Assembly: GCA_964016885.1 (NCBI GenBank)
Contig: OZ024742.1
Coordinates: 95,108,001 to 95,172,000, forward strand
DNA: 64,000 nucleotides
Reading direction: 5' to 3'
DNA from: Eledone cirrhosa
Taxonomy: Eukaryota
How positions within the stretch are numbered: position 1 is the first letter of the stretch; each line of letters begins with the position of its first letter. The position numbers and the translations under genes were made by a program. This document shows, piece by piece, positions 129-53,542 of the stretch. The notes below the pieces were generated by a model. That model saw only the letters and a program-made list of their open reading frames with translations, did no database searches and was not told where the DNA came from.

Positions 129-3100
129 CATCATCATCATCATCATCATCATCGTTTAACGTCCATGTTCCATGCTTGCATGGGTTTGGACAGGAGTTTT
201 CCCACTTGAGGCAAGAGTTATTGTCTTGCTCGCATAGGACTGTCTGGCGGGTTTTCTACAGCTGGATGCCCTTCCTAACACCAACCAAATTTACAGTGTG
301 GGACTGGGAGGTTTTTACCGTGTTGCCTACACGCCCACATTACAGCGTGGACTGTGTGTTTTTTTTGTCATGACACCTACACGATCTCATTTGTTTCGGC
401 CTGGATGTTGTGGCACCAAATTAACTTTACATTGAAGGGAGCGGTGTGGATGAGGTGGGGGTGGTGGGACGGGGGTGTATTTTATTAGAGATGCCTACTG
501 ACTGTAGTAGGTTTTACTTTGTATTCAGGTAAGGCGGGTCTTCTCTATTACTGAGTACCGCCAAAGATCTCGGTCCAGTGACATTGTCTTGGAGAGGTGT
601 AAGTGTGTGAGGTCGGAATTTATCAGGTCGTCCCAGGTTTTTCTGGGTCTGCCTACTCCGTGGCTACCGTCTATCTTTATTGCCCTGCACTTTTTTTATA
701 CAGCTGTCGTCTTTCATGCGCATCACGTGACCATACCAATGTAGCCTTCTCTCGAGTAAACAACATCTGATCCCTCTTATTTCTAATTTTTCCCTTAGTT
801 CGTTTATGCTTTGCCGTTCGCGTATATTACTATTACACATCCAGCAGAGCATGCAAACTTCGTTCCTCTCTAGTCGGCATATATCCTCTGCACACAATGC
901 CCAGGTATCACTGCCATGCAACATTGCTGTTCGTATGCAGGCATCATACAGCCTGCCTTTCATTTTTAGGGAGAACCCTTTAGCAGCTAATAGTGGTATA
1001 AGCTCTCTGAACTTTTTCCATCCAGTTCTGACTCTAGCTACTGTACTTTCAGAGCACCCTCCCCCACTGCTGATTTTGTCACCCAGGTAACGGAAGCTGT
1101 CCACTATTTCTATAGAACCCTCTGCGCAATTGAAAGAGCAAGTATTTTGTGGGCACTTGCTGCTACTTATTGCACCAGAGCACCGGCCACATGTAAAATC
1201 TCTGTTCTTAGTTAACTTACCTGTGATCCCACTACATCTTTTATGCACCCATACTTTGCATTTGGGTCATAAAATGGAGTTTCTACCTACGCCTTTCCTA
1301 CACACTGAGCATGGCCATTTCCCGGAAGGGACCGGTGCTTCATTTTCTTTCCTACAAACTAGAACTTTAGTCTTAGCCAGGTTAATTTTAAGGCCTTTTG
1401 ATTCTAGGCCATGCTTCCATGTTTGGAATTTCTTCTCTAGCTTGGCCATTGATTCAGCTATGAGCGTTAGATCATCTGCGTATAGGAGTTCCCATGGGCA
1501 GCCAGTCTTGAACTCCACTGTTATAGCCTGAAGGGCAATAATAAATAGTAGGGGGCTAAGAACAGAGCCCTGATGAACACCAACTTTTACGCTGAACTCT
1601 TCACTATATTCGTTGTTAATTCTAACCTTGCTGACCGTTTCTTTATACATGGCTTGTATAGCTCTCACAAGCCATTCATAAACACCTAGTTTTCTAAGAG
1701 CCCACCAGATAATGGAACGGGGGACTCTGTCGAAGGCTTTCTCCAAGTTAATAAAAGCTAAGTATAGGGGTTTACTTTTAGCTAGGTACTTCTCCTGTAG
1801 TTGTAGTACAATGAAAAGAGCGTCTGTGGTACTTTTGCCTGACACAAACCCGAACTGCATTTCATCTAGATCAGTTCTCTCTCTGATTAGTTGCACTATT
1901 ACTTTTTCCGTGACCTTCATGACCTGGTCGATTAATTTAATGCCTCTATAGTTACTCCTATCTAGGGCATCTCCTTTACCCTTGTAACAGTTAATGATGA
2001 TGCTGCTACGCCAGTCCTTCAGAAGAACCCCATTCTGTATGACTTGGTTTACAATCCGGGTGACCATGGTGTGTTCCACCGTTCCAGAGGCTTTCAGCAT
2101 CTCAGCAACTATTTCCGAAGGCCCAGCCGCCTTACCCGTCTTCATATCTTTGATTGCCTTACTTATTATACTACCTTCAACTAACACTGCTGGTCCCTCT
2201 ATTGGGTCGATGTGGGGGAGACTGTCCTTCTCCCATTTATTCTCCTCATTTAGTAGCCTTTCATAGTGACACTTCCAAGCTACCTTCTTATCAGCGTCAG
2301 TGATGGCAAGTACGACATCATCATTTAGTACACACTTCTCCCCGACAATATCACGGTTATCCTTGACACATTGCCTAGCAATCCTGAACACCTCACGTTT
2401 TTGGTCCTCGCGTTGTAGAACATGCTTGAACTTTCTTTCCTCTGCTTCCCTTCTTGCGAAGTACACTTGTCTCCTAGCTTCCCTCCTGGCCACTTGATAG
2501 TCTTCTCTACTTCCCCCATCCCGCCATACTTTCCAAGCCTGCTTTTTGGCCTTAATCGACTCCTCCACCTTACTGTTCCACCACCATATTACTCTCCTCC
2601 TGCCTATAGGCCTGCTCCGGCCACAGACTTCGTCTGCCGCCATCAGCAGGTTTGCTTTCGAGAATTCCCACTGTTCCTCTATATTGTACGACTCTAAATG
2701 CTCTTCCTTACTGTCGAAAGCATCAAGTAATATGCTTTGAAATTTATTTCTGGCTGTGGGGTCCTTTAGCTTCCATATTTTCTCCTGAGGATAATCCCCT
2801 TCTCCTGACGAGTACGTCTCATCCTGACTATGAGGTCGCTAATTATCAGTCTATGTTGGGAGGTGCATTCTTCATGGGGGAGGGATTTAGTGTTTACAAC
2901 AGACACTCTGTCACGTCTTCTGGTAAGGATATAATCTACCTGGCTGGTATGTTCCCCTGATCTGTAGGTGATCAAGTGATTGTCTCGTTTTTTAAAGTTA
3001 GTGTTACAGATTATTAGGTTATTTGCGTCACAGAATTCCAGGATTCTGTAGCCTTCCTCATTTCTAGTACCAAACCCATAGCCTCCGTGGATTCCATCAT

Positions 3101-3512
3101 AGCCGTCACAATGTTGTCCAAAGTGACCATTTAGGTCGCCAGCAATAATTATATAGTCACTGTCGGTTATTTGGGAGGTAGTGAGCATCAGTGTCTCATA
3201 GAAACTGTCTTTTATAGCGCCAGGCAGACCGGATTGGGGCGCGTACGCAGATATTATCGTCACAGTAGTTCTATTTAGAACAAGTCTTATTTTAATTATT
3301 CTGTCGTTTACTCTATTTACGTTTATTATCTTATCTACCCATTTTTCTGCTAACATGATTCCTACCCCACCCAGCCCATTGTCATTTTCCACCCAGAAAA
3401 GCTTATAGCATCGTTTTTTACTCACAATGAATCTAGCCAGCCCGCCCCTCCACCTGGTCTCTTGGATACAGCAGACATCAACCCCCTTACGTTCAAGCAT
3501 TTCTACAACCTC
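129..3512 (-). mobile_element. RTE-clade LINE, copy A (slightly 5'-truncated; APE endonuclease + RT + PHD-like finger; frameshifts at ~2780 and ~690, stop at 1267)
   Basis: ORFs 2766-3563, 1267-2643 and 664-1248 give IQETRW, SAYAPQ, GDLNGH, QVDYIL, SQHR (APE) and NYRGIKL, LEKAFDRV, HQGSVLSPLLF, LYADD, FRYLG (RT). (GAT)n tail at the left end. 7-bp TSD tgtgaat at 122-128 and 3513-3519. Confidence 0.95.
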
Positions 3513-3550
3513 TGTGAATATATATATATGTATATATATATGTATATACT

Positions 3551-3746
3551 GTGTAGGTAACACGGTAAAAACCTCCTAGTCCATACTGTAAACGTGGTTA
3601 GTGTTAGGAAGGGAATCCAGCTGTAGAAAACCTGCCAGACAGTCCTATACAAGCGAGACGACCAATCTTGCCTCAAGTGGGACAATTCCTCTCTAAACCC
3701 ATTCTAGCATGGAAGATTGACGTTAAATGATGATGAGGATGATGAT
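3551..3746 (+). mobile_element. Short 5'-truncated 3' end of the same RTE family
   Basis: Colinear with 53730-53930 (aacacggtaaaaacctcc...ttaggaaggg..tccagctgtagaaaacc...gcatggaa...gatgatga). Confidence 0.85.
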
Positions 3747-6025: not shown

Positions 6026-7079
6026 ATGTTTTGGGGAAGAAAAAGGTATATTAGGTGCTTTGGAGTTTGTGAAAACCCAGGAAAAGAATGAAATAAACTA
6101 CTTATGTGTTTAATTTTATTTTGAAAATAATCAAGAATAACTGTTTTCATTATTACACTTCATGATAGAAGTTTTTATATAAATACATACACTATCAAAC
6201 AGACAGTTGTATACAATAGAACCAAATGATGATGGTTTCTGATGGTTTTGTATCAAAAGATTTAAAAACATTTGACTCAGCATTGCACTATTTCTCAGTC
6301 TTTAAGTAATTATGTTGAAGATGTTATGTTGCTGCTGACGATGTTAACAATAATGATGATGAGGAGAATTACAATGATGATGATGATGATGAAGTAACTG
6401 AAATATACCTGGTCGGATTACATTTCACATAATCTTGTTTGGACTTAAAATACTAATAAAACATTGATGAACATTTTTTTATATTTACAGACAAAACTGA
6501 GATATTTTTAAAGAAACTGAAGTTGACAGCATTGGTTCTGATGATGGAAACTTAAAACACATCATCGTCATAGTTTTTCATATAGTTAACAATCTGATTC
6601 TGAAGAACTATGCTGATGGGATTAAATATTCCAAAAACTAAAAAAATGGTAGGGAAAAAGAAAAAAACAAAGAGAATTTGTTTACGTCATTCCAAAATTT
6701 TATCTGCAAAGATGAAGTCTTCACAGGGTTAAGGTTTGAAAAGAACAAACAACATCACAGTTATTATTATTGGGAATAGTAGTAGTAGTTGTTTCACCAT
6801 TAGAAGTAACAATAACAAGTATAATAGTTTCTTTATCTCTTGCAACAGAAAAACAAAATAATAAACGTTAAAAATAAAAGCCTTATAAAGTATAACAGGC
6901 AAAACAAAGTGTGAAAAAATAGTATTTAAGTGAAACATGATTATAAATTCCACCAAAATAATAGAAAAATGGAATAGATCATTATTCAGACAGGATTTGA
7001 CATTTCCAAAAACATAGGGTACCCTTCTTGTAAGATTGTATTGTATTTTCTAAGCTTAGCTTGCTTGTTCAATTTAAAG

Positions 7080-7445
7080 GCGAGTGGTGGTAACATGCCA
7101 AAATGCACCCAGTACATTCAGTAAAGTGGTAGTGTTGATACTACAATAAAATGTAACCAGTAAAATTTTGAATGTGGGACTGCTGATAACTCAATGCATT
7201 TCACCCAGTACACTCTGTAAAGTGCTAGTACTGGATCCATACTAAAATGAAACCATCAAAATTTGTAAAGTAGTTGAGTTGGTGTTATGATGGAATGTAC
7301 CCTGTACATTCTATAAAGTTGGCATTAGGAGGAACATCTGCCATAGAAATCAAACTAAATATTTAACATATAGGCCAGACTTGGTTCTTTGACATGTCTA
7401 GTCTTGGAAAAGCATGGAAAATAGGTGTAAAACGATGATGTTGAT
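7080..7445 (+). mobile_element. Old RTE 3'-UTR remnant with ~45-bp internal tandem units
   Basis: Repeated cacccagtacactctgtaaagtg units, then ggcattaggagg..catc..gccatagaaa and gcatggaaaa...gatgatg. Confidence 0.65.
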
Positions 7446-7639
7446 AAAAATATTTTTTCTCAGATATACATGCTTTTCCTATTCTGATTCAGAAAATCTT
7501 TCTAAATTCATGCCCCTCTCTCTCTTTCACTATATATCTATCATTAATCGATACTTGAAGCAGAAGACATAGAGTTGTTAGCCCCCAAAACACATGTTGT
7601 TCTTTCAGTCCCTTCTATCTTATTCTCTATATGGCATAT

Positions 7640-7995
7640 TTACCCCTTTCATTTTGCTGGTGACATGATAAATAAACTCCAGTCTACCTTGTAAGTGTAG
7701 TGCTGGTGCCTGAACAAAAAGCATCCATTCAACCATATAAGGTTGTAGTGTTGGTGCCACAACAAAACACACCCAGTCTTCTCTGTAAGGTTGTAGTGAG
7801 GGTGCCACTATATAAGGTGCTAGTGTCAGAGTCATGATAAAATACTCTCAGTATAGGCTATAAGGTAGTTGCTGTTAGGAAGAGAATCCAACTATAGAAA
7901 CAAAGTCAAAAATGGTATGTACAAGCAAGACATAATCACCTGAACAGTCTAGCCTCAGTACACGACAGATTGTATAATCCATGCATATGTTAAAT
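7640..7995 (+). mobile_element. Old RTE 3'-UTR remnant with ~45-bp internal tandem units
   Basis: Repeated taaggttgtagtg..ggtgccac units, then gttaggaagagaatccaactatagaaac. Confidence 0.6.
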
Positions 7996-8744
7996 GGTAT
8001 GGTATAGCATGGACCCAGAACTTGTAGTGGAGTTATAGGGGTACCATAGTGGCATACAGCATTGCTTTGGGCATTTTAAGCTTGGCAGAGCTCCTTTCCA
8101 GGTCTGAACACAGCAGATTTCTTCCTAAGAAGGATTGAAAGGAAGAAAAAGATATAGAGAAAGAGTCAATCCCAGTACTGGTCTGGTACTTTTTTTTAGA
8201 GACCTCAGAAAAATGAAAGGCATTGTTGATCTCACCAGTATTTGGATTCAGAGAGAAGAGAACTAGAAGAGATATTGCAAAGCATTCTATCCAGCATTCG
8301 AACGACTACCAATTTGCAAATTAAATAGTGAAAATTATTATACCAAACCACCTGAAACTGATACTGATTCTATGATGCAAAACTGCACATTATAAAGTTT
8401 TCTTATTTAAATTTAAAGTATCCATCATCATTTTGTCTTAGAAACTTTCATTACTTAATGGGTGGGCGAACTTAATCAATCATCCAGTTTAACTCTACCA
8501 CCTAGTCCTTGTGTACCTTTAGCAGAGTCTATTTTGCTGTAAATATTTGAAACAGGTCTCTAGTTTGAAGATACTTTCCTCCTTCTCTCTCTCGCTGCCC
8601 ACCTATGTCTGAGCCCTTGGAAATGGTCATGGAAGCTATCTTTCCTTACTGACTAAACAGTGGAAGAAAACAAAAAGATCTCTGAGTCTCATGATTAATT
8701 CAAATCTTCATCTTGGTTAACCGTTTCATTCTCACTGTTATTTT

Positions 8745-29277: not shown

Positions 29278-31298
29278 TTATTATTGTTGTTGTTGTTGTT
29301 GAATATTTTCGGAAAGACTGATACTACTTTAATGTATATAGCTTCATCCTGATCATCATTATAGTCATCACCACCACCACTATCACCTTCATATCTACTA
29401 TCATCATCACCACCAATATCATTATCATCACCATCATCATCCTCTCAACCCTTATAACCATCGTCACCACCACTTCTATCCTCATCTTCGTTATCATCAT
29501 CTACAACTCCAACATGCTTTTTAAGGACAAACACAGTCCTCAAGAATATCTAGATTAGTCTCTCCAATAGAGTGTATGTTTTCTTCAATATACTCTTCAA
29601 GGGCATCCAATATGTTATTTCCATTTCTCTGTCTTCCATCTTCACAGACACATTATCTAACAAAACCAATTTCACTTAAAAGTTTTTTTTCTTTTTTCTT
29701 ATATTCTTTGTGAATATTTTGTTACTTTTTCTACTTAACTTGTTTTTCTGTCATCTGTTGAGTTACCAAAACGACTAGTCATCTGCTACTGATATACACA
29801 GACATTAGCCTTCATGCCATCATCATCATAATCATCACCATCATCAACATTTTGTCTTTGTTTTCCATGCTGACATGGATTAGAGAGGTCATAGCAGTGA
29901 AAGACTAAACTGGTTGGAGAACCATATCTAGCTCATATGAGGGCTGGCTGACCAAGGTACTCTCATGGAATGAGGTTTATTTTTCAACGGAGTACCCAGA
30001 AAGGAACAATGCAGTTATTAATTATAAGAGTTGAAATTAGTGCATGCAAGATTTCACAGATCTTGCATCACTCCTTTAAAGTCGGCCTATACACTTTTCA
30101 GCCCACCCTTGTACATTCCATATTTGGCATGGTTTCTACAACCAGAATATACTGGGTGCATTTTATCATGGTACCAGCACTACCACATTATAGATTGTCC
30201 TGGATGTATTTTATCATGGCAACAGGACCAACAATTTACAGAGTTAAATAAATTGACACCAATACATAACTGATATTGAAAAAGAAATAGTAATTTCAGT
30301 GGATTGTGAATGCAGAATGAAAGGAAGCAAAACTCAATAGTACTAGTCAATAGTATATCCTGGTGCTCTATCTATTTTGCACACCCACAACCCAATGATG
30401 ATGATGATAATGACAATGATGACAACGCCGATGATGAAAGTTAATCAGATGGATAAAATGTTTTGCTTTTTTCCATAAATCTAAGTTATTTCGTCAATAT
30501 TCCAATATTTTAGTTTATCTTGAAAATCTTGCAAGATATTGGAAAGACATCATTTAATTTTGCAGCAATGTTTGTCCAACCATGTCAGCTACTGGAAATC
30601 ATGTCGATAGTGATGGCTATAATGATGGTCATGACGACAGACAGAATAATGATGGGGAAGATAAAATTAAGTTATGATGATGATGATGATGATAATGATG
30701 GAAATGGATGTAGTTGTTATGGCAGGGATGATGCTAATGATGATGTTGTGATGGCTGTGATGCTGGTGATGGTGGCAGTGATGGTGAAAATAGTGGTGCT
30801 AATGATGATGATTTGGTAATGATTAGTGGATGATATTTATTTCGTGTTTGAGTTGTTGACAAAGATATTTGGAGAGATATTGATGATGATGATGATGAAG
30901 ATGGTTTAGAGCTACTTACTCAAGATCTTCAAACTGATTACTGCAGAGAGGAAAGAGTGACAACTTCCTCTACCTTACAAAATTGTTCCAGTTTTTTCCT
31001 TAAAAACAGTCTCAGCCAATAGTTAAGATATCCATTTTGATGAATATTTTCTTTCTCAACAACATAATAATTATTTCTAATGCAGCCACAAATTCAGAAC
31101 TTTGGGAAAGCGGAACAATTGAGCTCATTCACCCATGCACTTGGTAGGTATTTTATTTTGTTGACTCAAGAAAGATGAAATGTAAAGATCGCTTCAGCAC
31201 GATTTGGACTCAGAATCTAGCCATTTTGTTTGACCCTCTAATCATCATCATCACTGATTTTTACAATCTATCACATATTTTGATAATAGTATAATAAT

Positions 31299-31628
31299 TG
31301 TTTCTACTTTTGGCACAAGGCCAGCAAATACCCAGTGCATTACTGGTACTTTATTGTATCGACCCCGTAAGGATGAAAGGCAAAGTTAACCTCGGCGGGA
31401 TTTGAACTCAGACCGTAAAGGAATGTAACTATGCATGGCGTCCGACTCTCTACTGATACTGCCAATCCAATATTATTATTATTATTATCATTATTAGAGT
31501 GTGGTGGGCTGGTACAACTGTTAGTGTGTTGGATGAAATGCATCACAGTATTTCATTATAGTCTGCTACATATTGGAATATTGACGAAATAACTTAGATT
31601 TATGGAAAAAAGCAAAACATTTTATCCA
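31299..31628 (-). mobile_element. SINE-A insertion (31299-~31469) with ~160 bp of locally templated extra DNA at its 5' junction
   Basis: 18-bp TSD tgataatagtataataat at 31281-31298 and 31629-31646 encloses the SINE plus inverted copies of 31737-31833 and 30449-30508. Confidence 0.85.
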
Positions 31629-33204
31629 TGATAATAGTATAATAATGGCTTGGGGAAGGGGAAGGTCAATTACAATGACCCACCATGTGGGTAGTACTTT
31701 ATTTTATCATCCCCAAAAGGATGACTTGGAACCAGAATGTAGAGGACTATAATGAAATACTGTGATGCATTTCATCCAACACACTAACAGTTGTACCAGC
31801 CCACCACACTCTAATAATGATAATAATAATAATTTATTTTTCCTTTTGTAAGGTTTCTCTAGCAATAAGTTATAAGGTGAAGTGTGTTAATTTACCATCA
31901 GTCCCTGATCTCAGAGGCTCAATAAATAGCATAGGATTCTGGCAAAGCCAGCGATGGTAATAGTGATGATGATGATGATGATGATAATAATAATATAACA
32001 GTTATAATGATTTCTAAGATAGGTACAATGTACTAGGCTCCATAATAAAAAAAATAAAGTCAAGCATCACAAGATTTTAACATACATTTATTTCCCCTCT
32101 CTACTGATTCATATATTATTATTGTTATTATTATCATTTAAGAGTAATGGATTATCAGACTTAGAGCATTGGACAAAATACTTTGCAGTGTTTAGTTACG
32201 TTTTGAGTTTAAATTCTGCTGAGGTTAGCTTTTCCTTTCATCCTTCTGGCATTGATAAAAAAAGTACCAATTAAATACTGGTGTTGATAAAATTGACTTT
32301 CCCCAATATCAAAATATTATTGGCTACGTTCTTAGATTGGAAACAATTATTATTTTGTTGTACTTTGGTAGGGCCATACTGCCAATGAAAAACACATGCA
32401 CCTGTTGGTTTCACTTCAATTTATTATTATAATTTGCTAGTCAGTTAGTTTCATTAACAGCTGGTTGTTTATTTGTTGATTGACAAAGTTCTTAAGTAAC
32501 ACATTCTGTGACTATCTTTGTTGTTATTTTGTATCTTTTATTTGTTCTGTTTTATACTGTCTTAATTTCTTCTCTTTACACCTTATTTTGTCATTCTGGA
32601 TTGCTAGATAATAACCTGTCTTCTGCAGCCTTAGGTATCCACCACGTTATGTATGGTTCTTACTGTGCCAAGTTAACAGGTTTTCTTAAGAGTCTGGAAA
32701 TCCATGTCAATACCCAATATCTTCAACCAACCATCCAAAATTCAATTCACTTTCCCTATGGCTCTAAATACAATTGGGATGATAACAAATTTGCAACAAT
32801 TTTAGAATATTTGTAGTGTACATTCCAAGTCTTGATACTTTTCTATTTTCTTGCATTCTTTGTCACCCACTCTAATATCAAATGGACAATCATCATCATC
32901 ATTTCACCTTTTGACTTACATTTTCCATGCTAGCATGTGTTAGACAGGAATCAATATTGCTTAATCTACAAACTCTTTTCTCTTTACTGAGTGTAAAAAT
33001 ATCTGAGTGTGAAGACTCTCTTTGCTTATCTGTTTCAATCTTCATGCCCATAATACTTTTATATGGTTGTTTGCAATAATACATTCTGGTTTGTGGTCAT
33101 ATCTTTCCATTGCATGTTCAAATTCGAACTATTTACAAATTCATCTATTCAAGATTGTGACAACTTTTTTGTCTCTAGTTCTTATAATAATTATGAGGAA
33201 ACAT

Positions 33205-49921: not shown

Positions 49922-50599
49922 ATATGTGTATATATTTAATTGAAATTTCCAACATTATCACACACAGTATCAATTTGAATCTCCCTGAGAATCACGTTAA
50001 TGCCACAAATATCTGTTGAGCTTGCATCGTCAAAATCGACAGAGGTCCATTCTACTGGTTTATTCACCTTTATATTTTTACTATAAATCTTTCTATCAGT
50101 ATGTATTTCTATCTACCAATATATCTGCTTCTTATTCTGTTTCTTAGTCTGACACTTTTAATTCTCTATATCACTCCATCTATTGATCTCAGTGTTTTAC
50201 ACTACATCTTTTTATGTGTGATGATGGTGGTGATGAAATATTGATAGTGGTGGGGAAAGATGGAGGAGTGATGTTGGTGGGGGAATTGTAATGGTGGAGG
50301 TGTGATAATGGTGGATGGTGGAGGGGTGATTAGGGCAGAGGAGAGAGGATGTTGGAGTGATATTGGTGAAGAGATAACATTGGAGGAGTGATGAAGATGG
50401 AGGGGTGATGATGTTGGAGGAGTGATTTAAATGAAAAAAAGTGGTCGATTCTTATATTTAACTTTACAATTTAGGAAATGTAATTTCGTGTGTGTATTTG
50501 TGTGTACGTAATGATTTACGTATATGATTTCACTTTAAATTTGAATATATACACAGCCACACAGCCACACACATGTGTATTATATATATATATATATAT

Positions 50600-53542
50600 A
50601 TTCAAGAGACCAGGTGGAGGGGTGGGTCTGCTAGATTCATTGATGGTAAAAAACGATGTTATAAGCTTTTCTGGGTGGGAAACGACGATGGGCTGGGTGG
50701 AGTAGGAATCATGGTAGCAGAAAAGTGGGCAGATAAGATAATAGACGTAAATAGAGTGAACGACAGAATAATTAAAATACGACTTGTCCTCAATAGAACT
50801 ACGGTGACAGTAATATCTGCGTACGCACCCCAATCCGGACTGCCCGGTACTATAAAAGACAGATTCTATGAGACACTGATGCTAACTACCTCCCAAATAT
50901 CCGACAGTGACTATATAAATATTGCAGGCGACCTAAATGGTCACGTTGGACAACATTGTGACGGCTACGACGAAATCCATGGAGGCTATGGGTTTGGTAC
51001 TAGAAATGAGGAAGGCTCCAGAATCCTGGAATTCTGTGATGCAAATAACCTAACTATCTGTAACACTAACTTCAAAAAACGTGACAATCACCTGATCACC
51101 TATAGATCCGGGGAACACACAAGCCAGGTAGATTATATCCTTACCAGAAGACGTAACAGAGTGTCTGTTGTAAACACTAAATCCCTCCCCCATGAAGAAT
51201 GCACCTCCCAACATAGACTGATAATTAGCGACCTCATAGTCAGGACGAGACGTACTCGACAGCAGAAGAGGACTATCCCCAGGAGAAAAATATGGAAGCT
51301 AAAGGACCCCACAGCCAGAAATAAGTTTCAAAGCATATTACTTGATGCTTTCGACAGTAAGGAAGAACATTTAGAGTCGGACAATATAGAGGAACAGTGG
51401 GAATTTCTGAAAGCAAACCTGCTGTTGGCGACAGACGAAGTCTGTGGCTGGAGCAGGCCTGTAGGCAGGAGGAGAGTAACATGGTGGTGGAACAGTAAGG
51501 TGGAGGGGTCAATTAAGGCCAAAAAGCAGGCTTGGAAAGTATGGCGGGATGGGGGAAGTAGAGAAGACGATCAAGTGGCCAGGAGGGAAGCTAGGAGGCA
51601 AGTGTACTTCGCAAGAAGGGAAGCTGAGGAAAGAAATTTCAAGCATGTTCTACAACGCTATGACCAAAAACGTGAGGTGTTCAGGATTGCTAGGCAATGC
51701 GTCAAGGAAAACCGTGATATTGTCGGGGAGAAGTGTGTACTTAACGATGATGGCATACTTGCCATCACCGACGCTGATAAGAAGGTAGCTTGGAAGTGTC
51801 ACTATGAAAGGCTACTAAATGAGGAGAATAAATGGGAGAAAGACAGTCTCCCCCATATCGACCCAATAGAGGGACCAGCAGTGTTAGTCGAGGGGAGTAT
51901 AATAAGTAAGGCAATCAAGGATATGAAGACGGGTAAGGCGGCTGGGCCTTCGGAAATAGTTGCTGAGATGCTGAAGGCATCTGGCACGGTGGGACACACC
52001 ATGGTCACCCGCATAGTTAACCAAGTCGTACAGAATGGGGTTGTTCCGAAGGACTGGCATAGCAGCATCATCGTTAACTGTTATAAGGGTAAAGGAGACG
52101 CCCTAGATAGGAGTAACTATAGAGGCATTAAATTAATCGACCAGGTCATGAAGGTCACGGAAAAAGTAATAGCACAACTAATCAGAGAGAGAATTGACCT
52201 AGATGAAATGCAGTTCGGGTTTGTGTCAGGCAAAAGTACCACAGACGCTCTTTTCATAGTACGACAACTACAGGAGAAGTACCTAGCTAAAGGTAAACCC
52301 CTCTACTTAGCTTTTGTCGATTTAGAGAAAGCCTTCGACAGAGTCCCCCGCTCCATTATCTGGTGGGCTCTTAGAAAACTAGGCGTTGACGAATGGCTTC
52401 TGAGAGCTATACAAGCCATGTATAAAGAAACGGTCAGCAAGGTTAGAATTAACAACGAATATAGTGAAGAGTTTAGCGTAAAAGTTGGCGCCCATCAGGG
52501 CTCTGTTCTCAGCCCCCTACTATTTATTATTGCCCTTCAGGCTATAACAGAGGAGTTCAAGACCGGCTGCCCATGGGAACTCCTATACGCAGACGACCTG
52601 ACACTCATAGCGGAATCAATGGCCGAGCTAGAGAAGAAATTCCAAACATGGAAGCACGGCCTAGAATCAAAAGGACTTAAAATTAACCTGGCTAAGACTA
52701 AAGTTCTAGTTTGTAGGAAAGAAAATAAGGCGGCGGTCCCTTCTGGGAAATGGTCGTGCTCGGGGTGTAGGAAAGGCGTAGGTAGAAACTCCATTTTATG
52801 TCCTAAATGCAAAGTATGGGTGCATATAAGATGTAGTGGGATCACAGGTAAGCTAACTAAGAACATAGATTTTACATGTGGCCGGTGCTCTGGTGCAATA
52901 AGTAGCAGCAAGTGCCCACAAAATACTAGCTCTTTCAATTGCGCAGAGGGTTCTATAGAAATAGTGGACAGTTTCCGTTACCTGGGTGATAAAATCAGCA
53001 GTGGGGGAGGGTGCTCTGAAAGTACAGTAGCTAGAGTCAGAACTGGTTGAAAAAAGTTCAGAGAGCTTATACCACTATTAGCTGCTAAAGGGTTCTCCCT
53101 AAAAATGAAAGGCAGGTTGTACGATGCCTGCTTACGAACAGCAATGTTGCATGGCAGTGAGACCTGGGCATTGTGTGCAGAGGATATACGCAGACTAGAG
53201 AGGAACGAAGCTTGCATGCTCCGCTGGATGTGTAACAGTAATATACGTGAACGGCAAAGCATAAACGAACTAAGGACAAAATTAGTAATAAGAGGGATCA
53301 GATGTTGTTTACTCGAGAGAAGGCTACGCTGCTATGGACACGTGATGCGCATGAAAGTCGATAGCTGTATAACAAAGTGCAGGGCAATAAAGATAGACGG
53401 TAGCCACGGAATAGGCAGACCTAGAAAAACCTGGGACGAGCTGATAAACTCCGACCTCACACACTTACACCTCTCCAAGACAATGTCACTGGACCGAGAC
53501 CTTTGGCGGTACTCAGTAACAGAGAAGACCCGCCTTACCTAA
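50600..53542 (+). pseudogene. RTE ORF (APE-RT-PHD finger) with a single premature stop (TGG>TGA at 53048-53050)
   Basis: ORFs 50573-53050 and 53105-53542 are in the same frame; YADD intact; N-terminal endonuclease residues are missing. Confidence 0.9.

What the first reader, a model, noticed from the sequence alone, without database searches (positions are those of the whole stretch)
31281..31833. SINE insertion carrying two inverted copies of nearby DNA inside its TSD (template-switch footprint)
Seen: an 18-bp TSD (31281-31298, 31629-31646) brackets SINE-A (31299-~31469). Next comes 31475-31571, the reverse complement of downstream 31737-31833 (97 bp, 2 mismatches). Then comes 31570-31629, the exact reverse complement of 30449-30508, about 0.8 kb upstream of the insertion site. 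Junctions have 1-2 nt microhomology. Both extra templates are + strand sequence, the polarity expected if first-strand cDNA kept extending after the SINE RNA ended. Inference: RT jumped onto local + strand nucleic acid (displaced DNA or nascent RNA), or Pol-theta-type repair formed the 5' junction. The result is a near-perfect 97-bp hairpin, a possible ADAR substrate if transcribed.
Basis: partly seen in the sequence, partly recalled or inferred. Interest (0 to 1): 0.7.

Follow-up and report, generated by a model that had tools for sequence, protein, structure and literature searches.

The report
SINE insertion that copied neighbouring DNA
A short jumping element (SINE) sits with two back-to-front copies of nearby DNA (97 and 60 bases) inside one pair of insertion-site repeats, likely because the copying enzyme hopped onto neighbouring DNA while finishing a single insertion; this is a clean natural example of a rare outcome already known from human LINE-1 studies, not a new mechanism.

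Summary
The structure is real. The 18-bp TSD is 18/18, the inverted copies are 95/97 and 60/60, and no other copy above 94% identity was found. Sequencing-run contigs reproduce two of three internal junctions and show doubled depth over both duplicated segments, so an assembly artefact is very unlikely. The TSD fits the family (median 17 bp), so one insertion is likely. Added here: donor A is the head of an older SINE into whose tail the young one inserted, and a hidden 9-nt match (31466-31474 = 30501-30509) points to a fold-back step with 8-nt microhomology. I favour cDNA extension about 2:1. No other such insert was found in 75 TSD-called copies. Short fold-back junctions do occur in this family. 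No empty allele, host gene or transcript was found, so RNA templating and ADAR editing are untested. The outcome is known from L1, zebrafish LINE and R2 insertions, and this scan noted similar cases elsewhere in this genome (e1-10313550, e1-10308502). Low interest.

The parts
31281..31298 (.). Target-site duplication, copy next to the SINE 3' tail (inferred first-nick/primer side)
   Evidence: 18/18 with 31629-31646; begins ATTAT directly after the SINE end, as 64 of 70 family TSDs begin ATTA
31299..31469 (-). Young ATT-tailed SINE, about 8 nt 5'-truncated, with an 8-nt internal deletion shared by 17 other genomic copies
   Evidence: 94% to nearest sampled copies
31466..31474 (+). 9-nt patch (4 SINE bases + 5 added bases) identical to 30501-30509; 31466-31473 and 31570-31577 form an 8-nt inverted repeat around the donor-A copy (inferred fold-back footprint)
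   Evidence: exact 9-nt match, the only two + strand places in the window; any of the seven junction-spanning 8-mers occurs at 3.3e-4 per site in 1.4 Mb and 10 of 9938 local sites
31475..31571 (-). Inverted copy of donor A (31737-31833), 95/97, doublet mismatch at 31564-31565
31570..31629 (-). Inverted copy of donor B (30449-30508), 60/60; 2-nt overlap with the A copy, 1-nt overlap with the TSD
31629..31646 (.). Second TSD copy (inferred reciprocal 3' overhang), full length
   Evidence: contigs 31600-31723 with 0 differences
31647..31812 (-). Older, diverged SINE of the same family whose ATT-rich 3' end was the target
   Evidence: 55/70 and 65/83 aligned identities to window copies
31737..31833 (+). 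Donor A: head of the older SINE plus ATT tract, 91-187 nt from the insertion point
30449..30509 (+). Donor B (30449-30508) and the patch match (30501-30509), about 0.8 kb from the insertion point

Best explanation
The SINE and two inverted copies of local DNA lie inside one 18-bp duplicated target site, and were likely made in a single target-primed insertion in which the new cDNA end, instead of joining at once, likely kept priming on nearby chromosomal DNA. Inferred order: (1) nick at the ATT-rich tail of an older SINE and reverse transcription of the SINE RNA, stopping about 8 nt short; (2) jump through the ATT tract onto the + strand at 31833 and copying of 97 nt, with a two-base error 6 nt before the tract ends; (3) fold-back of the 3' AT onto the cDNA's own SINE-head junction, adding 6 nt; (4) the new 8-nt end anneals to 30501-30508 on the primer strand and copies 52 nt more; (5) 1-nt join to the intact target overhang and fill-in. 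The polymerase is more likely a processive one (the partner LINE's reverse transcriptase or a strand-annealing repair polymerase) than Pol theta alone. The product is a passive scar with no shown function. Shown: the anatomy. Inferred: single event (about 0.9), direction and order (about 0.55), enzyme.
For: Anatomy and read support. TSD of family type: median 17, IQR 14-18, n=70. All added pieces sit at the 5' junction inside the TSD. The 9-nt link is unlikely by chance (3e-4 to 1e-3 per site, post hoc) and explains why a donor 0.8 kb away was used. cDNA-end fold-back is seen in this family: of 102 head-to-head SINE junctions, 15 were examined; 8 are a full SINE plus a short inverted head piece, and 2 of these (L261, L264) lie inside one 11- or 13-bp TSD. 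Mismatches cluster near where templated synthesis aborts (PMC5068794, passages), which fits the doublet at the end of the A tract in this direction. Precedent: PMC11702581 section 7 and Figs S9C and S10B captions; 10.1101/2024.08.27.596794, 22 templated insertions; PMC4245944; PMC11371274 snap-back class.
Against: The direction is not fixed by sequence: 9 of 27 fold-back sites are productive for the reciprocal-end route and 11-14 of 26 for the cDNA route. Donor A's + strand would not be exposed by resection of that end (inference). Five bases at junction 1 need slippage or untemplated addition in this route. The full-length TSD and a near-match of 4 nt offset by 2 at the last junction lean toward overhang priming. 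The copies look slightly younger than the SINE: 1-2 changes in 350 lineage-bases against 3-4 private SINE changes counted by eye (Fisher p 0.04-0.17). No empty allele was seen, junction 1 was not read-confirmed, and the partner LINE was not identified.
Confidence: 0.55

Rival explanations
1. Same single insertion, opposite direction. The target-site 3' overhang was extended, copying donor B, then donor A from its own resected strand, then folding back to make a 4-nt end that annealed to the SINE cDNA end.
For: Explains the SINE truncation point and all but one ATT unit of the patch. Fits a full-length TSD and the offset 4-nt near-match at the TSD junction. PMC11702581 attributes such inserts to processing of the reciprocal end; its Fig S9C is an inverted duplication of about 130 bp made this way.
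Against: The doublet error would then fall at the start of the tract rather than at its end (PMC5068794). Donor B's minus strand is the one that resection would remove (inference). The fold-backs seen in this family are on the cDNA end.
Confidence: 0.27
2. The reverse transcriptase used nascent host RNA spanning the site as template for A and B (jump or twin priming), with a fold-back between.
For: Both long templates are on one strand. RT switching between RNAs is described (PMC11702581 section 7). The patch can be made by self-priming, so it does not exclude RNA.
Against: No host exon was identified: 7 of 35 larger ORFs hit Pfam, all LINE-type domains. Both donors lie within 0.9 kb, as DNA templating predicts. 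The mismatches are not A-to-G.
Confidence: 0.08
3. The SINE inserted normally, and a later double-strand break at its 5' junction was repaired with templated inserts unrelated to retrotransposition.
For: The copies are slightly closer to their donors than the SINE is to its relatives (p 0.04-0.17). Local inverted duplications also occur away from SINE heads (3 others in 1.5 Mb).
Against: It needs a break exactly between SINE head and TSD that leaves the TSD intact. Family TSDs are also well kept (20 mismatches in 1146 bp, biased low). The SINE's differences may be inherited from an unsampled source copy.
Confidence: 0.08
4. Assembly or library chimera.
For: Fold-back structures are a known artefact class (recalled). 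Junction 1 is not read-confirmed, and X1-X3 may be the assembly's own sample.
Against: Separately assembled run contigs give both inner junctions at single depth and both duplicated segments at double depth, and keep the 2-nt difference between arm and donor. The TSD is of family type.
Confidence: 0.02

Closest known systems
L1 insertions with inverted duplication or templated genomic pieces near the site (PMC11702581, section 7 and captions of Figs S9C, S10B read)
   Same: TSD plus retrocopy plus short copies of DNA from within about 1 kb of the site; S9C is an inverted duplication of about 130 bp next to the L1, S10B has four local pieces
   Different: Engineered L1 in human cells there; a SINE in an assembled animal genome here, with a full 18-bp TSD, no loss at the donors, and donors on both sides
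'Templated insertions' of somatic L1 in tumours (bioRxiv 10.1101/2024.08.27.596794, passages read; supplements not seen)
   Same: Non-element templates under 250 bp copied into the insertion; rare (22 cases; the figure legend counts 3,598 insertions)
   Different: Templates there are typically within 15 bp of the site; here 91-187 nt and about 0.8 kb away, two in series
5' extra nucleotides of zebrafish LINEs derived from flanks (PMC4245944, parts 2-3 of 5 read; PMC2666801, passages)
   Same: Extra 5' sequence that originates from flanking DNA through annealing or template jump
   Different: Lengths and distances were not given in the parts read; a different element
R2/PRINT 'snap-back' 5' junctions (PMC11371274, passages)
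   Same: The cDNA 3' end primes further synthesis on itself or nearby target DNA before joining
   Different: Site-specific R2 protein in human cells; here the fold-back is only about 6 nt and is followed by a jump
Pol-theta templated insertions (PMC7165422, PMC5068794, passages)
   Same: 1-2-nt priming, repeated rounds, inverse-repeat inserts, errors near the abort point, AT-rich templates
   Different: Tracts rarely over 10 bp, templates typically within 20-30 bp, about 1 error in 30 nt; here 97 and 60 nt, up to 0.8 kb, 2 errors in 157

Membership tests
TPRT insertion with locally templated 5' junction | TSD of the element's usual length and start brackets the whole composite | tested here: met
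   18 bp starting ATTAT; family median 17, 64 of 70 start ATTA
TPRT insertion with locally templated 5' junction | Intact 3' end at one TSD, extra DNA only at the 5' junction | tested here: met
TPRT insertion with locally templated 5' junction | Extra DNA duplicates local sequence that stays in place | tested here: met
   donors present, no other copy above 94% found; doubled depth
TPRT insertion with locally templated 5' junction | Empty allele has one TSD copy and none of the insert | tested here: inconclusive
   X4-X7 gave no listed contig or read at the site
Pol-theta templated insertion (TINS) | Short microhomology at junctions, repeated rounds | tested here: met
   1-2-nt overlaps, three added pieces
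Pol-theta templated insertion (TINS) | Tracts mostly under 10 nt from within about 30 bp of the break | tested here: not met
   97 and 60 nt from 91-187 nt and about 0.8 kb against PMC7165422
Pol-theta templated insertion (TINS) | Dependence on POLQ | not testable with these tools
   needs a retrotransposition assay in knockout cells
Twin-priming 5' inversion | Inverted piece comes from the element's own RNA | tested here: not met
   the inverted pieces match local DNA at 98-100%; A includes flank outside the old SINE and is not the young SINE's sequence
tRNA-derived SINE | Short, non-coding, high-copy, microsatellite tail, TSD | tested here: met
   248 copies in 1.5 Mb; over 1000 exact hits for each 3'-end pattern
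tRNA-derived SINE | tRNA-related head | tested here: inconclusive
   no Rfam tRNA match at E<=10; A/B-box likeness is by eye and from recall only
tRNA-derived SINE | 3' tail shared with a partner LINE | tested here: inconclusive
   four window LINE ends were read by eye; none shares the tail
ADAR substrate | Transcribed long duplex with A-to-I editing | not testable with these tools
   predicted fold -198.7 kcal/mol, z -21; transcription and editing not observed

The most novel reading that the evidence does not exclude
In this animal's germline the SINE's partner reverse transcriptase itself performs serial DNA-templated jumps over about 1 kb, using a fold-back onto its own cDNA to build an 8-nt primer that finds the next template. 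With well over 10^5 copies (extrapolated), the genome would hold a natural library of such junctions to separate RT-driven from host-repair-driven 5' joining.
Probability: 0.25. Interest if true: 0.45.

Novelty: new member of a known kind. Interest (0 to 1): 0.22.

Why it matters
How the 5' end of a LINE or SINE copy is joined to the chromosome, and by which polymerase, is still unsettled. One junction cannot settle it. The case shows that serial local templating, mostly described from cultured cells and tumours, also ends up in an assembled invertebrate genome, and that SINE insertion can create a near-perfect 97-bp inverted repeat. It is rare (0 of 75 other TSD-called copies, upper 95% bound about 4%), and no function is shown.

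Tried and rejected
No RNA holder listed. Host gene: 35 of 94 ORFs were scanned, and only LINE-type domains hit (7 of 35). No scan notes lie near the site. Rfam gave 10 matches, all far below gathering score. Donor A as an independent inverted SINE insertion: rejected, since it is 98% to the adjacent old copy including its flank, while other copies covering most of it are 76-85%. Other candidates were examined and dropped: L040 (an older, larger inverted duplication with later SINEs in one arm), L094 and L145 (not at SINE 5' ends). Five long TSD gaps were also dropped: L096 simple repeat, L168 and L182 SINE pieces, L185 tandem SINE, L191 two SINEs around a repeat spacer. A TSD-free test on 88 loci (2 of 90 dropped as overlapping) found inverted non-SINE matches on the 5' side in 3 loci, all outside their TSD, and on the 3' side in 4, so no 5' enrichment. 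Direction test by counting fold-back sites did not discriminate. The MAFFT divergence estimate was disturbed by the 8-nt deletion, so private changes were counted by eye. One paper search for pre-mRNA-templated insertions returned 0 papers; this is not a claim of absence.

Full report
Observation. The 18-bp duplication is exact, 31475-31571 matches the reverse complement of 31737-31833 at 95 of 97, and 31570-31629 matches the reverse complement of 30449-30508 at 60 of 60. A genome-wide DNA search (40 of 252 candidates scored) found the 60-mer only at its donor and only diverged SINE relatives for the 97-mer. The organism is probably an octopus; this rests on recall of the repeat and on a scan note (e1-9531333), not on a call of mine.

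Artefact test. In contigs of run X3 the two duplicated segments collapse at double depth (19 and 17.5). The junction contigs 31534-31599 and 31600-31692 match with no difference at single depth (9.1, 9.3), and the native donor-A branch (9.65) carries the two donor letters. X1 and X2 agree at the last junction. Limits: the three runs are one sample, possibly the assembly's own; the overlaps are 30 letters, one below the tool's bridging rule; and the SINE-to-insert junction was skipped as simple repeat.

Anatomy. The SINE is on the minus strand, ends in an ATT tail, lacks about 8 nt of its head and has an 8-nt deletion found in 18 genomic copies, itself included. It inserted at the ATT-rich 3' end of an older copy of the same family (about 31647-31812), whose head and flanking ATT tract are donor A. 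The five bases 31470-31474 plus the last four SINE bases equal 30501-30509, the end of donor B. So an 8-nt inverted repeat brackets the donor-A copy. The same head junction letters also occur at an unrelated locus (C4:190912387), so the junction sequence itself is not rare; the coincidence is its match to donor B's end.

Family context. Of 212 SINE 3' ends examined, 76 had a TSD call and 136 had none. 70 had a gap of 8 nt or less (TSD median 17, IQR 14-18, 64 starting ATTA). Six had longer gaps: this one and five explained otherwise. So 0 of 75 others carry a locally templated insert, upper 95% bound about 4%. A TSD-free test on 88 loci showed no 5' enrichment of inverted local copies. In 158 stretches (1.5 Mb), 5 of 14 near-identical local duplications were inverted; two are this finding and three are not at SINE 5' ends. 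To test the scan's note on snap-back products I searched for head-to-head junctions: 102 genome-wide. Of 15 examined, 8 are a full SINE plus a short inverted head piece, 2 of them inside one TSD; 6 look like separate insertions and 1 is unclear. Short head pieces are alike across the family, so the two TSD-bracketed cases carry the weight.

Mechanism. A single target-primed insertion is likely (about 0.9). Counting workable fold-back sites gave 11-14 of 26 and 9 of 27. For the cDNA route: fold-back on the cDNA end is seen in this family, the doublet error lies 6 nt before the tract ends, where aborted synthesis tends to leave errors (PMC5068794, passages), and an 8-nt homology explains the distant donor. 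For the overhang route: the full TSD, the explained truncation point, an offset 4-nt near-match at the last junction, and the model in PMC11702581. I put these at 0.55 and 0.27. Pol theta alone fits poorly, since its tracts are rarely over 10 bp and typically within 30 bp (PMC7165422, passages). A later repair event gets weak support from the slightly higher identity of the copies (p 0.04-0.17). RNA templating is neither shown nor excluded; no host exon was identified among 35 of 94 ORFs scanned. The 97-bp hairpin is predicted to be very stable, but transcription and editing are unobserved.

Comparison with what is known. Flank-derived 5' extra nucleotides are reported for zebrafish LINEs (PMC4245944, parts 2-3 of 5; PMC2666801, passages). 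Snap-back onto cDNA or nearby DNA is a junction class in R2 insertions (PMC11371274, passages). Tumour L1s show 22 templated insertions (10.1101/2024.08.27.596794, passages; its Supplementary Fig. 4d on distances was not seen and may bear on how unusual 0.8 kb is). Engineered L1 gives an inverted duplication of about 130 bp and a four-piece local insert (PMC11702581, passages, section 7 and supplement file 1 part 3). PMC6007223 (abstract only) links TSD starts to microsatellite tails in RTE-related SINEs, which fits the ATTAT start, but the partner LINE was not identified here. The scan has noted similar composites elsewhere in this genome (e1-10313550, e1-10308502).

Verdict. Real, well resolved, and a new member of a known kind. 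The added value is the hidden fold-back link and a first frequency bound for this family. Interest 0.22.

Noticed in passing
L040:3360-3794 and 6314-7100 (G000:C3, about 50 kb from the finding): Inverted duplication of at least 430 bp at 96-99% identity, 2.5 kb apart; two SINEs lie in one arm only, so the other arm shows their empty sites.
   Followed up: partly
L191:1339-2400 (oriented coordinates): A 20-bp repeat (19/20) brackets SINE + about 660 bp of repeat-containing spacer + SINE; possibly one composite insertion, or a chance match of a common repeat end.
   Followed up: partly
L261, L264 (and L259, L262, L265, L267, L269, L273): Full SINE with a short inverted copy of its own head at the 5' junction; TSD-bracketed in L261 and L264. 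102 head-to-head junctions genome-wide.
   Followed up: partly
L205: 44-bp minisatellite made from the antisense SINE 3' end, more than 20 units, next to a SINE head.
   Followed up: no
window 664-3575 (-) and 50528-53542 (+): Two related LINE copies with endonuclease, RT and a C-terminal PHD-finger match, ending in a GAT repeat tail; 50528-53050 is an open frame of 840 aa.
   Followed up: no
L145:7280-7315 and 7599-7684; L094:7253-7289 and 8160-8196: Short local inverted copies (36-37 bp, 94-97%) not tied to a SINE 5' end; L145 looks like part of a longer interrupted inverted repeat.
   Followed up: no
L172/L175 and L174/L176: Same SINE TSD and 5' junction at two places about 1 Mb apart on C1, suggesting segmental duplication.
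   Followed up: no
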